A stretch of DNA of 37,035 bases from a virus (Duplodnaviria > Caudoviricetes). Each line of letters begins with the position of its first letter. The first letter of the stretch is position 1. The position numbers and the translations under genes were made by a program. Location of the stretch: positions 1 through 37,035 of the IMG/VR virus record IMGVR_UViG_3300042468_000248, one strand, 5' to 3'. Positions 10,683-14,151 of the stretch are shown here, one piece after another. The notes under the pieces are model-generated. The model searched no databases. It was not told where the DNA came from and saw nothing but the letters and a program-made list of their open reading frames with translations.

Positions 10683-10807
10683 TAGTTGTTTGCTGAAAAA
10701 ATAAAAAAAATTGTTTTCAAGCCCATTGTCACAATGACCACCAGCTCGCGGGCCGGCCCACCCCCTCAAATGCAAGTGATTCCCGTTTGCATCCAGTCGT
10801 CGGCGTG

Positions 10808-11172
10808 GTGGGCAATGTGGGCACGACCCACGCGGCGCGCGGCGGTGTGGCGCGCGGCCTGGCAGGTGTGGGCAATGTGGGCAATGCGCCGACAAGTCGT
10901 GTTGTGGGTCATGTGGGCAATTGGGCGCAAAGTCGTGTTGTGGGTCATGTGGGTCAAATGGTCATCGAAATTAAATCGCAGCGGCTCCAACGATGCGAGC
11001 GCTGCACGCTGTATGCTGTATGTTTATACAGTATATTTTTTTTACTGACTTAAAGATAAAGAGATAACCCACATTGCCCACAAGTCATGTTGCGCCCTAT
11101 GTTTTCAGGCCTTTGCGCGTGGGCAATTCTTCCGAAAAACATTGCCCACACGACTGCCCACAATGCCCACAA
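10808..11172. repeat. Field of ~14 9-bp TGTGGG(CA/TC)A repeats in both orientations around an AT-rich core; candidate replication origin or packaging site
   Basis: Tandem pairs at 10808/10816, 10867/10876, 10903/10912 and 10939/10948; exact 24-bp repeat AAGTCGTGTTGTGGGTCATGTGGG at 10894 and 10930; inverted TTGCCCACA-type copies at ~11066-11082 and ~11142-11172; AT-rich 11010-11066. Confidence 0.8.
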
Positions 11173-11218
11173 CCAAAAATGCATAGCATCGCGGGCATAT
11201 GTTATTGTAAGAAAATCC

Positions 11219-11247
11219 TTGACAGGCTATTCGGCCGCATTTAATCT
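11219..11247 (+). promoter_or_regulatory. Strong sigma70-type early promoter
   Basis: TTGACA(11219-11224)-N17-TAATCT(11242-11247), at the head of the plus-strand gene cluster. Confidence 0.8.
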
Positions 11248-11281
11248 GTACCCACTGACAACGCAACTCGAGCAAGCACAA

Positions 11282-11413
11282 ATGAAAAACAGAGCGAAAA
11301 AGACCATTTCAGCCGCGATTGAAAAAGGGCTGTTCATCTTTGTAATTTTCAGTTTCATTGTTATGTGGATTTTTTCGGCTTACGAAATGTCGCGTTTCAT
11401 TGCTAACAACTAA
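11282..11413 (+). CDS. Small single-TM membrane protein (43 aa)
   Basis: MKNRAKKTISAAIEKGLFIFVIFSFIVMWIFSAYEMSRFIANN; first ATG after the promoter; weak SD. Confidence 0.55.
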   Translation: MKNRAKKTISAAIEKGLFIFVIFSFIVMWIFSAYEMSRFIANN

Positions 11414-11428
11414 CTGGAGATAGCACAC

Positions 11429-11581
11429 ATGACTTACCGCTACTCAACCGTTCTTATGCTGATCGCCTACCCGCTACTCATCGGCACGTTTTTTGTCCAC
11501 GAGTCCGCACAACTGGCCGTTGGCCTTGCGGGTATGTTCGCCGCACTCGCCGCCGCCATCACCAACGCTTGCGGCGACTGA
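11429..11581 (+). CDS. Small two-TM membrane protein (50 aa)
   Basis: Read manually: MTYRYSTVLMLIAYPLLIGTFFVHESAQLAVGLAGMFAALAAAITNACGD; GGAG SD. Confidence 0.7.
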   Translation: MTYRYSTVLMLIAYPLLIGTFFVHESAQLAVGLAGMFAALAAAITNACGD

Positions 11582-11641
11582 TCACACTCTGTAAACTTTT
11601 CCCTGTTCGCTAACCTAAACTAACCTAAAGGATTAATCGCC

Positions 11642-12244
11642 ATGAAATTTGAAATTTCACACAACACGCTGAAAGCTCTGTTACTGATCGCCGCCAAAAA
11701 CGACCGCCGATGGTATTTGAACGGCATTTTGCTCGAGGTCCGCGCGAACGACATCACGGCCGTGGCCACCGATGGCCATCGCCTGATGGCCGTACCGGTC
11801 ACGCTCGCCGATGGCGCGCGCATGGTCGGTCAATACATCATTCCGCGCGACTTGCTCGACGGCGTTAAGCCGTCGCACAAGACGCTACCGATTGGCGTCA
11901 TCATTAATGACGCGATCAACGTCACCATTGACACCGGCGGCGCGCAATTGGCCGGCAAGCTGATCGACGGCACGTATCCCAATTGGCGTACCGTCGTGCC
12001 GCATACCGTGACCGGTGCGGCTGGCCAGTTCAACCATGAGTACATCGCGAGCTTCGGTAAAGCTCACCAGCTACTCGGCGGCAAGTATTCGCCGACGATG
12101 TTCCACAATGGCGATGGTGCCGCGCGGATCAAATTGGCCGCCGATGCCGTGGGCGTGCTCATGCCGTTGCGCGAGTCCGAGCCAGGCCCGCTCGACAACC
12201 CGAGCTGGATCGACCCGCCCGCGCCCGTGTCCGCCGCTGCCTAA
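11642..12244 (+). CDS. Truncated DNA polymerase III beta-clamp (DnaN)-like protein
   Basis: DRRWYLNGILLE, AVATDGHRL and KLIDGTYPNWRTVVP match the DnaN central domain; GVLMPLR matches the DnaN C-terminal motif; only 200 aa; AAGGA SD. Confidence 0.85.
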   Translation: MKFEISHNTLKALLLIAAKNDRRWYLNGILLEVRANDITAVATDGHRLMAVPVTLADGARMVGQYIIPRDLLDGVKPSHKTLPIGVIINDAINVTIDTGGAQLAGKLIDGTYPNWRTVVPHTVTGAAGQFNHEYIASFGKAHQLLGGKYSPTMFHNGDGAARIKLAADAVGVLMPLRESEPGPLDNPSWIDPPAPVSAAA

Positions 12245-12246
12245 CA

Positions 12247-12307
12247 TGGCGAAACGTGCGGCGCCCATGGCCGCACGTCTACGGGTACGACCCGTACTGA
12301 CGAGCCA
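12247..12307 (+). ncRNA. Hammerhead ribozyme, type II
   Basis: UGGC-GAAA-CGUGCGGC[GCCCAUG]GCCGCACG-UC^UACGGGU[ACG]ACCCGUA-CUGACGA-GCCA. Complete core (CUGANGA, GAAA, GUC triplet) and three perfect helices; predicted cut after C12279; intergenic and on the sense strand. Confidence 0.93.
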
Positions 12308-12334
12308 CTAACCTAAACTAAAGGAAACAACGCC

Positions 12335-12823
12335 ATGCAACCAGCTATCGAAACGACCACCGGCGCCATGCCCGCGCGCGACCATCTGCGCGAGACCATC
12401 CTTGACACGCTCCACGCATGGGTGCGCCAGCGTCCCGGTCTCGACCCGCGTAACTATATCCGCGACTGGGACGACCACGCCGGGCGCGCCGCGTACCGCT
12501 CCGACTCGCGCGCCATCACCACGCACCTGCGCGACGCGCGCGCCATGCTGCGATATATCGAACTGCGCTCGACCATCACGGGCGCCGATCTGCTGGCCGC
12601 GCTCAACATGGGCGGGCGCTTGACGTATACGCCGGGTCGCGGGCTCGACTACACCACCGGCCAGTATTGGTCGATGGAGTACCGCGCCGCCGCGTGTCGC
12701 GTGTTGTCGAGCGTGATCTGGGATTACCTGCGCGAGGGCATGGCCGACCCCGACGGCGACAAGCTGCGACTCGCCGCGCGGCGCGAGCTGGGGCCGAGCA
12801 TCGCCCGCCGGTGGTTCCGATAA
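12335..12823 (+). CDS. Hypothetical early protein (162 aa)
   Basis: AAGGA SD, GC3-rich codon pattern, fills the operon; no family recognised. Confidence 0.75.
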   Translation: MQPAIETTTGAMPARDHLRETILDTLHAWVRQRPGLDPRNYIRDWDDHAGRAAYRSDSRAITTHLRDARAMLRYIELRSTITGADLLAALNMGGRLTYTPGRGLDYTTGQYWSMEYRAAACRVLSSVIWDYLREGMADPDGDKLRLAARRELGPSIARRWFR

Positions 12824-12862
12824 TTTTTGACCGCGTAAACCACAACCAAAAGAAATGACACA

Positions 12863-13222
12863 ATGAAAACTGCAATCATTACCGCCGCACTGGCGGCCAC
12901 TCTCGCCACTACGGCGCACGCTGACGTGTTCGCCACCGGCCCCATGGCCGACGACCGCGACGGGCGCGTGGTGCTGACGACTGAGATATGCGTGGAGAAG
13001 CTCGACACGCTAGCGCTTGGCACCAATAAAAGCGCTCTAGATGGACTGCGCCGCGCGTTCTACTATACGGGCGCGGGCGTGACCAATGAGGGCTGTTGGA
13101 AGCATGAGGCCGGTACCGTGCTGCTAGTGTGGCCGACTGAGAACATCATCCGCCGGCGGCCTATCAAAAACTTTAAGCTCGAAGCTGCCGCCGTGGGTCC
13201 GACGTGGGACACGCTGCGATGA
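12863..13222 (+). CDS. Putative exported protein with Sec signal peptide
   Basis: MKTAIITAALAATLATTAHA|DVF (AxA cleavage site); two Cys, including a GCW motif. Confidence 0.75.
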   Translation: MKTAIITAALAATLATTAHADVFATGPMADDRDGRVVLTTEICVEKLDTLALGTNKSALDGLRRAFYYTGAGVTNEGCWKHEAGTVLLVWPTENIIRRRPIKNFKLEAAAVGPTWDTLR

Positions 13223-13341
13223 TCCGTTGGCTGCGCGGCTTCTGGCGTTCGCTGGAGGCCGCGCGTCAGTACGAGTGGCGCCGCGTGCCGCCGCCTAACT
13301 GGGCGTGCTCACGTCGGCGCTGGGGTGGCGACTATTGGTAG
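13219..13341 (+). CDS. Small Trp/Arg-rich protein (40 aa)
   Basis: Read manually: MIRWLRGFWRSLEAARQYEWRRVPPPNWACSRRRWGGDYW; ATGA overlap; fills the gap before DUF3310. Confidence 0.6.
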   Translation: MIRWLRGFWRSLEAARQYEWRRVPPPNWACSRRRWGGDYW

Positions 13342-13352
13342 AGGGTAACAGT

Positions 13353-13775
13353 ATGCACAACCTGACAACGCTAGAGGCTATCGAGTTTGAACGCGACATA
13401 GGCCGACCGCCTGACCCGCCCATCGACCCTGAAACCATGTACAGAACGTCGGAGCGCGCGCGCTGCACGCTCAGTACGGACGAGCTGCGCGCCATCCTGG
13501 GCGAGTACGACGCGGGCCACAGTACGCCTGAGCACGCGCCCGCAGTAGGCGACGCCATCGAGCCCGACCATTACAAGGTCGGCGGGATCGAAACCATCGA
13601 CTACATGCGCGCTAAGAGTACGCCCGAGGAGTTTGAGGGTTACTTGCGCCTGTCGGCGCTCAAGTACCTGAGCCGCGTCGGGCATAAGAACGGCGACCAC
13701 GACGCCGCGCGAGCCGAGGAGTATAAAAAGGCGCGATGGTTCATCGACCGGCTGATACAGGAGATCGACCCATGA
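13353..13775 (+). CDS. DUF3310 (SaV / T7 gp1.7-like) protein
   Basis: PDHYKVGGIETIDYM...ALKYLSRVGHK...EEYKKARWFIDRL; start placed at ATG 13353 (GAGG SD). Confidence 0.85.
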   Translation: MHNLTTLEAIEFERDIGRPPDPPIDPETMYRTSERARCTLSTDELRAILGEYDAGHSTPEHAPAVGDAIEPDHYKVGGIETIDYMRAKSTPEEFEGYLRLSALKYLSRVGHKNGDHDAARAEEYKKARWFIDRLIQEIDP

Positions 13776-13966
13776 GCGCGCCCGTAGACCGCGACGAGCT
13801 CACGCGTGTAGTGAAGCTCTACACCGAGGCCGTGTATAAGCTGCTGCACTACGAGGCGGCGCTGCACCGCATAGCCAACATGAGCCGCGACCAGTGCGAG
13901 GACGCACACGCCATCGCACGGCGTGCGTTGGAGCGGCTGAACGATGGCCAGAGTCGAGCTAACTGA
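13772..13966 (+). CDS. Hypothetical protein (64 aa)
   Basis: MSAPVDRDELTRVVKLY...; ATGA overlap with DUF3310 and AGGAG SD. Confidence 0.7.
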   Translation: MSAPVDRDELTRVVKLYTEAVYKLLHYEAALHRIANMSRDQCEDAHAIARRALERLNDGQSRAN

Positions 13967-14147
13967 ATGGTGGCGGCGGCGGCTGGGTCGATGGATCGAC
14001 CTTGCGCGCAAGGACGCGCGCCGGCCCCGCTGGCACCGCCCACCGCCGCCCAGTACGCGCACCACAGTACGCGCTCGCTACCATCAACTAAAGGCCAAGC
14101 AACGTGATCTACTTTCTCTTGACTATCGCCGCGACCGTCATCCTTGA
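13944..14147 (+). CDS. Hypothetical Arg-rich protein (67 aa)
   Basis: GGAG SD; last plus-strand ORF before the converging primase. Confidence 0.5.
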   Translation: MARVELTEWWRRRLGRWIDLARKDARRPRWHRPPPPSTRTTVRARYHQLKAKQRDLLSLDYRRDRHP

Positions 14148-14151
14148 CTGG

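What the first reader, a model, noticed from the sequence alone, without database searches (positions are those of the whole stretch)
12247..12307. Canonical type II hammerhead ribozyme splitting the early transcript after the beta-clamp-like gene
Seen: it starts 2 nt after the dnaN-like stop. Stem II UGGC/GCCA is open-ended (type II), followed by GAAA, an 8-bp stem III, a GUC cleavage triplet (cut after 12279), a 7-bp stem I and CUGACGA. All core nucleotides are intact. Known: hammerheads occur in phage intergenic regions, their role there is largely unresolved, and cleavage leaves a 2',3'-cyclic phosphate and a 5'-OH. Inference: RNase-independent processing of the early polycistron, leaving the upstream mRNA with a 3' hairpin and the downstream mRNA with a 5'-OH hairpin that resists 5'-monophosphate-dependent decay. 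This would be functionally analogous to the RNase III sites of T7 early RNA.
Basis: partly seen in the sequence, partly recalled or inferred. Interest (0 to 1): 0.8.

Follow-up and report, generated by a model that had tools for sequence, protein, structure and literature searches.

The report
Phage hammerhead ribozyme in hairpin's slot
A genuine hammerhead RNA motif of a kind known in phages since 2011 sits just after a gene of this uncultured phage and likely cuts its early message in two; related phages carry the same small hairpin at that spot without the ribozyme, which hints that it is an optional punctuation mark rather than a new kind of device.

Summary
The motif is real: type II hammerhead at 12247-12307, core intact, predicted cut after C12279; 0 hits in 300 shuffled windows; Rfam Hammerhead_II 32.7 bits, below its cut-off of 37. 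It lacks the usual type II pseudoknot and fits a common phage subtype with U1.7 and an A beside a 4-bp stem II (59 of 74 short-stem-I examples; U1.7 in 0 of 91 long ones). Thirteen variants follow the clamp-like gene's stop codon while the next gene changes; two have a broken core. In relatives the same slot holds a plain hairpin, a terminator-like hairpin, a promoter-like site, a long hairpin or nothing; eight plain hairpins share 17 identical bases with stem-loop III. Likely role: cutting the early message so that both pieces end in hairpins, without stopping transcription. This idea is in print (PMC3088659) and untested here; no RNA data were listed. New member of a known kind; modest interest.

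The parts
11219..11247 (+). Putative sigma-70-type early promoter (TTGACA, 17 nt, TAATCT); inferred
   Evidence: Regex hit; similar sites in L171, L181, L183 (3 of 8 relatives checked). Not called by the consensus scanner, which needs 4 of 6 in the second hexamer.
11642..12244 (+). 200-aa gene with one beta-clamp-like domain; its stop codon abuts the ribozyme
   Evidence: PF02767 E 1.1e-12; phrog_3007 and phrog_947
12246..12246 (+). A just 5' of stem II; predicted Hoogsteen partner of U1.7
   Evidence: Invariant in 13 of 13 variants; A at this place in 59 of 60 phage type II motifs that have U1.7 and a Watson-Crick 4th pair
12247..12307 (+). Type II hammerhead ribozyme: stem II 12247-12250/12304-12307, GAAA 12251-12254, stem III 12255-12262/12270-12277, cut predicted after C12279, stem I 12280-12286/12290-12296, CUGACGA 12297-12303
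12258..12274 (+). Inner stem-loop III; 17 bases identical to the plain hairpin that ribozyme-free relatives carry in the same slot
   Evidence: L179; 8 distinct ribozyme-free loci with the exact 17-mer after a clamp-like gene; same 7-nt loop in the terminator-like hairpin of L013
12286..12286 (+). U1.7, predicted tertiary contact base
   Evidence: Invariant in 13 of 13 variants while its opposite base is A or G
12308..12334 (+). A/C-rich leader with Shine-Dalgarno-like AGGA (12322-12325); near-copy of the leader of the clamp-like gene
12331..12337 (+). CGCCAUG around the downstream start codon; complementary over 7 bp to 12245-12251 (5' arm of stem II); possible competing helix
12335..12823 (+). 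162-aa ORF of no known family; replaced by other genes in relatives that keep the ribozyme
   Evidence: No Pfam or PHROG hit

Best explanation
This is an intact type II hammerhead motif between two early genes of an uncultured phage, predicted to cut the phage's likely early transcript after C12279 and so to act as an optional punctuation mark. Shown: the motif, its conservation right behind the clamp-like gene's stop codon whatever gene follows, and that relatives fill the same slot with a plain hairpin, a terminator-like hairpin, a promoter-like site, a long hairpin or nothing. Inferred: host-type RNA polymerase transcribes from about 11250; the active fold forms as soon as 12307 is made, helped by a U1.7-A12246 contact in place of a pseudoknot; it cuts, probably largely during transcription; the upstream piece then ends in stem-loop III plus two bases and a cyclic phosphate, the same hairpin that sister phages leave at this 3' end, while the polymerase goes on; the downstream piece starts with a 5'-OH base paired in stem I, followed by an open leader and ribosome site, like an engineered ribozyme insulator. 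The likely effect is two separately stabilised and separately translated messages. Rough odds: real hammerhead 0.97; cleaves when isolated 0.85-0.9; cleaves in infection 0.7; this is its use 0.55.
For: Intact core and chance control. 13 distinct variants, 232 of 234 cells paired, two pairs with changes on both sides; the only core position that varies among the 11 intact ones is N7. Cassette kept while the downstream gene changes (162-aa ORF, DUF7249-like ORFs, others) and with both clamp subfamilies upstream. Slot alleles among 72 distinct sequences of the same phage group: 24 hairpin, 18 hairpin plus T run, 13 promoter-like with hairpin, 6 long or complex, 5 none, 5 intact and 1 broken hammerhead (two rows relabelled by hand). 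Terminator-like call for L013, promoter-like call for L232. Product folds. Literature passages: phage transcript processing proposed and 14 of 18 consensus hammerheads active in vitro (PMC3088659); a hammerhead insulator raises mRNA about 2-fold and protein 2-10-fold in E. coli (PMC6206723); RNase E is much less active on 5'-OH than on 5'-P RNA (PMC10939160); conserved A-U Hoogsteen pair with U next to 1.6 (PMC2553840).
Against: No cleavage or expression data. Broken-core alleles (L010/L172: G12A and a stem II mismatch; L266: G12A and G8A) and ribozyme-free alleles lie in the same clade, so it is dispensable. Stem I never varies, so it gives no covariation, and the count of doubly changed pairs is reached by 374 of 500 shuffles. 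In longer context the folding model loses stem II (probability about 0; gaps 3.1-8.1 kcal/mol). U1.7 can pair with A12290 here, which slowed a related construct about 2-fold (PMC11875169 passages). The slot's alleles point in opposite directions for downstream expression (terminator-like versus promoter-like). The host and its nucleases are unknown.
Confidence: 0.55

Rival explanations
1. Ribosome-gated or kinetic switch. The 5' arm of stem II can pair with the last codons of the clamp-like gene or, over 7 bp, with the downstream start codon region. The motif would cut only in a window of about 25 transcribed bases, or when ribosomes clear those competitors; an uncut message would hide the downstream AUG, and cutting would free it.
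For: Stem II probability 0.99 for 3' ends 12308-12332, 0.01 or less from 12335 on, when the RNA starts at the stop codon; 0 throughout when upstream codons are free. The 7-bp match is in 8 of 11 intact variants. The core starts within 15 nt of an upstream stop codon in 71 of 96 phage type II motifs, against 15 of 94 opposite-strand controls.
Against: The match is missing in 3 of 11 intact variants and in L333. CGCCATG is also the start context of the clamp-like gene, so only 2-3 bases need be chance. Only 2 of 139 phage motifs have 6 bp or more, both of this family. Loss of stem II in context is generic in the model: 41 of 73 with downstream and 24 of 73 with upstream flank. The model ignores tertiary contacts and Mg2+.
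Confidence: 0.17
2. Near-neutral passenger. Only the hairpin (stem-loop III) matters, as a 3' end protector or protein site; the catalytic part came in once, cleaves little or to no effect, and is decaying.
For: 2 of 13 variants have a broken core; ribozyme-free alleles with the same hairpin are at least as varied as ribozyme alleles among clamp-linked 17-mer hits (9 against 3 distinct rows); all hammerhead rows fall in one clade of the primase tree.
Against: 11 of 13 variants keep every core base while loops, N7 and stem pairs change, across phages whose primases are 78-100% identical. The motif class is common in phage intergenic slots (about 650 stored stretches estimated for one narrow pattern).
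Confidence: 0.15
3. Down-tuning device. Cleavage exposes the downstream piece to decay, as glmS cleavage does, so the ribozyme lowers expression of the genes after it, much as the terminator-like allele would.
For: 18 of 72 slot alleles are hairpins with a T run. glmS self-cleavage followed by host RNase decay lowers expression (PMC6765202 passages). One 1,345-base contig with the motif lies in a bin labelled Microbacteriaceae, a weak hint of a host outside Proteobacteria.
Against: The 5'-OH base is paired in a 7-bp hairpin; hammerhead insulators raise expression in E. coli; 13 of 72 alleles are promoter-like and 5 are empty. The contig may be misbinned.
Confidence: 0.12

Closest known systems
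Type II hammerhead ribozymes of bacteria and prophages (Perreault et al. 2011, PMC3088659; Rfam RF02276)
   Same: Open stem II, hairpin stems I and III, full consensus core, phage intergenic position between small variable genes; transcript processing already proposed there, and an early-region halovirus example has a mapped 5' end near its cut site.
   Different: No loop I/3' tail pseudoknot, which most type II motifs have; 32.7 bits, under the Rfam cut-off; single copy rather than a cluster. That paper's Fig. S5 also scores a U...A loop contact for type II, but only its labels could be read.
sTRSV-type hammerheads with the conserved A-U Hoogsteen contact (PMC2553840; O'Rourke et al. as cited in PMC11875169)
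   Same: 6-bp stem I followed by U1.7, 4-bp stem II with an A directly 5' of its second strand.
   Different: Here stem II has no loop (type II), so the A comes from the 5' flank, in some variants from the stop codon itself; the contact is inferred from conservation, not from a structure.
RiboJ-type ribozyme insulators (PMC6206723)
   Same: Cleavage would leave a fixed 5' hairpin in front of a ribosome site, independent of upstream sequence.
   Different: Engineered, placed behind a promoter; this one is natural, lies inside a likely operon and also shapes the 3' end of the upstream piece.
T7 early RNase III sites such as R1.1 (PMC6121014 passages)
   Same: Intergenic processing signal in a phage early region; some relatives carry long hairpins with internal loops in this slot (L184, L213, L293, L312).
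   Different: No host enzyme needed; ends would be cyclic phosphate and 5'-OH rather than 3'-OH and 5'-phosphate (RNase III end chemistry recalled); that the long hairpins are RNase III sites is untested.

Membership tests
Hammerhead ribozyme | Core C3 U4 G5 A6 N7 G8 A9, G12 A13 A14, A15.1-U16.1, H17 | tested here: met
   CUGACGA 12297-12303, GAAA 12251-12254, U12278, C12279
Hammerhead ribozyme | Three stems round the core, paired next to it (G10.1-C11.1, 1.1-2.1) | tested here: met
   232 of 234 cells paired in 13 variants; two pairs change on both sides; stem I invariant
Hammerhead ribozyme | Self-cleavage after position 17 giving 2',3'-cyclic phosphate and 5'-OH | not testable with these tools
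   Needs in vitro transcription; no RNA run was listed
Type II hammerhead | Stem II open, stems I and III closed by loops | tested here: met
Type II hammerhead (Perreault consensus) | Pseudoknot of 4 bp or more between loop I and the 3' tail (majority feature, not universal) | tested here: not met
   Best helix 2 bp (L023) or 3 bp (L078), and the tail differs between them
Rfam RF02276 Hammerhead_II | Score of 37 bits or more | tested here: not met
   32.7 bits over model positions 1-66
Hammerheads with the A-U Hoogsteen tertiary contact | U at 1.7 and A 5' of a 4-bp stem II | tested here: met
   U12286, A12246; invariant in 13 of 13 variants; co-occurrence in phage motifs, Fisher p 2e-5 without correction for kinship
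Hammerheads with the A-U Hoogsteen tertiary contact | The pair forms and speeds cleavage | not testable with these tools
   Needs mutants and kinetics or a structure
Intrinsic terminator | G+C-rich hairpin followed by a U run | tested here: not met
   No + strand terminator-like site at the motif; met by the L013 allele

The most novel reading that the evidence does not exclude
The ribozyme was built on the phage's own intergenic hairpin: a resident stem-loop that elsewhere works as a plain or terminator hairpin became stem III, turning a terminator into a 'terminator that does not terminate', and the arms were tuned so that ribosomes at the upstream stop and the downstream start gate the cut. 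The clade would then be a natural allelic series (active, dead, hairpin only, terminator, promoter, empty) on one sequence background, in which the job of phage hammerheads can be read off directly.
Probability: 0.2. Interest if true: 0.65.

Novelty: new member of a known kind. Interest (0 to 1): 0.33.

Why it matters
The purpose of hammerhead ribozymes in phages is called an open question in the reviews read (PMC6155905, PMC6765202, passages). This copy does not answer it, but it comes with natural controls: alleles of one slot that differ only in having an active core, a broken core or the bare hairpin with the same 17 bases. That makes a clean reporter test possible. It also shows a frequent phage subtype that routine Rfam scans can miss.

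Tried and rejected
Rfam at gathering score: nothing in the window or in 18 related loci, six of which hold the motif. Rfam at E up to 1 on 12 loci with long or complex slot hairpins: 3 weak hits, none at the slot, so no other known ribozyme class was found there. blastn of 11500-13300 against GenBank phages: no match; the nearest annotated record by primase is an uncultured phage at 52.5%, so no cultured relative or host. RNA runs: no RNA holder listed, which is no evidence either way. Pseudoknot with the 3' tail: rejected. Start-codon pairing as a general rule of phage type II motifs: rejected (2 of 139, about 0.5 expected). Misfolding in context as specific evidence of regulation: weakened, it is generic in the model. 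Tail complementary to the catalytic core: absent here. Direction hairpin-to-ribozyme or the reverse: not settled; the primase tree puts the terminator-like alleles with this loop type outside the hammerhead clade (quick tree, careful search unfinished), the terminase tree leaves them unresolved among hammerhead rows; no root or one-clade test was run; slot labels were assigned by hand and rows without enough coverage were left out (53 and 47 rows used of 122 labelled loci). The automatic classes mislabelled L008 and L182 as dead (sequence cut at an ATG in the core) and include at least two doubtful rows (L186, L290) that look like coding sequence. Literature searches for a report of hammerheads trading places with terminators, or of a type II Hoogsteen subtype, showed only PMC3088659 as directly relevant in their listings; the library lacks most subscription journals, and that paper's type II alignment (page 990 of Dataset S1) lies beyond the 300 pages held, so these motifs may already be listed there.

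Full report
Setting. The window is a whole virus record of 37,035 bases, 99% complete by the tool's estimate, with portal, terminase, head, head-closure, tail-spike, primase and DNA polymerase genes. Most genes lie on the minus strand; a block of small genes runs on the plus strand from about 11280 to 14150, between the small-terminase-like ORF and the primase. A TTGACA-17-TAATCT site at 11219-11247 is the likely promoter (similar in 3 of 8 relatives checked; not called by the scanner). That this block is 'early' is inferred from layout. No cultured relative was found and the host is unknown.

Observation. The isolated motif folds as described (z -3.2). My descriptor finds this one site in the window and none in 300 shuffles. 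Rfam RF02276 matches over the whole model at 32.7 bits, under its cut-off of 37. The upstream gene has one beta-clamp domain in 200 aa.

Conservation. Protein and pattern searches gave 13 distinct versions of this motif; a further one came later (L333; one stem III mismatch) and is not in the counts. In the 13, 232 of 234 cells pair; one pair in stem II and one in stem III change on both sides; stem I never varies and so says nothing; the number of doubly changed pairs is not above shuffles (374 of 500). Eleven keep the whole core, with only N7 varying. Two are broken: L010/L172 (one contig; G12A and a stem II mismatch) and L266 (G12A and G8A). G12A slows a full-length hammerhead about a million-fold (PMC2553840, passages). 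Each broken version rests on one contig. The motif follows the stop codon of a clamp-like gene, of either of two subfamilies, while the next gene differs.

Subtype. Most type II motifs use a pseudoknot between loop I and the 3' tail (PMC3088659, section 6). This one cannot. From a pattern scan of viral contigs (149 stretches from 12 of 64 parts, about 650 estimated) I drew 167 distinct type II motifs, this family's own among them. Those with a stem-loop I of 17-19 nt have U at 1.7 in 68 of 74, an A directly 5' of a four-base stem II strand in 69 of 74, and both with a Watson-Crick fourth pair in 59 of 74; those of 20 nt or more have U1.7 in 0 of 91; two of 16 nt have none. The base opposite U1.7 is A in only 16 of the 74. 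This matches the A-U Hoogsteen contact of sTRSV-type hammerheads (PMC2553840; PMC11875169, passages). The pattern fixed GGC and GCC, and kinship was not corrected for. Perreault's Fig. S5 already scores a U...A contact for type II (labels only), so I do not claim the subtype as new.

The slot. Behind the clamp-like stop codon, 72 distinct sequences of the same phage group fall into: hairpin 24, hairpin with T run 18, promoter-like site with a palindromic spacer 13, long or complex hairpin 6, nothing 5, intact hammerhead 5, broken 1 (with two rows corrected by hand and two doubtful rows left in). L013 scores as terminator-like and has the same 7-base loop as stem III; L232 scores as promoter-like. 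A scan for the inner 17 bases of stem-loop III gave 102 stretches; 18 of the 103 loci examined (these and L333) had a clamp homolog, and of 12 distinct rows with a match 3 were hammerheads and 9 bare hairpins, 8 with the exact 17-mer and only one with a T run. So stem-loop III and the bare hairpin are homologous. On a quick primase tree of 53 rows all 8 hammerhead rows lie in one clade of 12 (SH-aLRT 99) with 2 bare-hairpin and 2 empty alleles, and none of the other 41 rows has one: one gain with later losses is the simplest reading. A terminase tree of 47 rows leaves the terminator-like alleles with this loop type unresolved among the hammerhead rows. Whether the hairpin gave rise to stem III or is its remnant is open.

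Mechanism. Shown: motif, conservation, position, alleles. From established chemistry: cleavage after C17 leaves a cyclic phosphate and a 5'-OH (PMC6155905, passages). Inferred: the upstream piece ends in stem-loop III plus two bases; the downstream piece begins with a paired 5'-OH base, then an open A/C-rich leader and AGGA. RNase E acts poorly on 5'-OH RNA (PMC10939160, passages), and a hammerhead insulator raised mRNA about 2-fold and protein 2-10-fold in E. coli (PMC6206723, passages). I therefore favour punctuation without polarity: both pieces get protected ends and transcription goes on (0.55). It is dispensable, since empty and broken alleles exist.

Against, and rivals. In the folding model stem II holds (0.99) only while the 3' end lies between 12308 and 12332 and the upstream codons are excluded; it is lost to the last clamp codons or to a 7-bp helix with the downstream start region. 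This suggests a ribosome-gated switch, but the helix is missing in 3 of 11 intact variants and in L333, is not general (2 of 139), and loss of stem II in context is common in the model (41 of 73): 0.17. A passenger reading (0.15) and a down-tuning reading (0.12) remain.

Known and new. Type II hammerheads between phage genes, their activity in vitro (14 of 18 consensus motifs of all types) and the processing idea date from 2011 (PMC3088659: passages, section 6, first part of the discussion, supplement list, labels of Fig. S5, first part of Dataset S1). A 2019 review says their purpose is still undefined (PMC6765202, passages). T7 R1.1 is a 60-nt hairpin with an internal loop (PMC6121014, passages); some relatives have long hairpins of that look in the slot, a resemblance only. 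My searches listed no paper on hammerheads trading places with terminators, but earlier notes of this scan report such swaps in other phages (unchecked, not independent support). What is particular here is the shared 17-base hairpin and the full set of natural alleles. Verdict: real, new member of a known kind, interest 0.33.

Noticed in passing
27 of 167 type II hammerheads in L018-L166 (e.g. L021, L029, L030, L055, L095): The 3' tail holds GTCAG or ATCAG, complementary to the motif's own CUGAYGA core, and follows N7: C with G 18, U with A 6, U with G 3, C with A 0. It may fold back to switch the ribozyme off or to stop religation. The window's copy lacks it. Kinship not corrected; no literature search made for it.
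   Followed up: partly
L226, L229, L232, L235-L237, L243, L244, L246, L250, L251, L329, L330, behind the clamp-like stop codon: Sigma-70-like site (TTGAC[AG], 17-18 nt, TATACT-like) whose spacer is a G+C palindrome resembling the slot hairpin; may be an operator or hairpin inside a promoter. One clade in both trees.
   Followed up: partly
L184:4673-4760, L265, L206:4604-4690, L294, L213:4541-4610, L293:3146-3205, L312:737-795: Long hairpins with internal loops or three-way junctions in the same slot (z -3.6 to -8.2), with no Rfam match there; candidates for RNase III sites or undescribed RNA motifs.
   Followed up: partly
96 phage type II hammerheads with enough flank, L018-L166: The core begins within 15 nt of an upstream stop codon in 71 of 96 (control 15 of 94); in many the stop codon supplies the first base of stem II; the next start codon lies mostly 20-35 nt after the core.
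   Followed up: partly
window 11611-11644 and 12308-12337: Near-identical A/C-rich leaders (CTAACCTAAA...AGGA...CGCCATG) in front of two neighbouring early genes; may serve as translation leader and as a crossover point for gene swaps.
   Followed up: no
window 10800-10960 and 11070-11175: Repeated TGTGGGCAA-like motifs, and their reverse complements further on, in the non-coding stretch between the small-terminase-like ORF and the putative early promoter; possibly packaging or replication signals (seen, not tested).
   Followed up: no
L333 (1,345-base contig): A further version of the motif with one stem III mismatch, in a genome bin labelled uncultured Microbacteriaceae; may be a misbinned phage piece, so only a weak host hint.
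   Followed up: partly
window 11642-12244 and relatives (alignment A1): Two subfamilies of the clamp-like gene, about 30% identical, alternate at one locus among phages with nearly identical primases.
   Followed up: no
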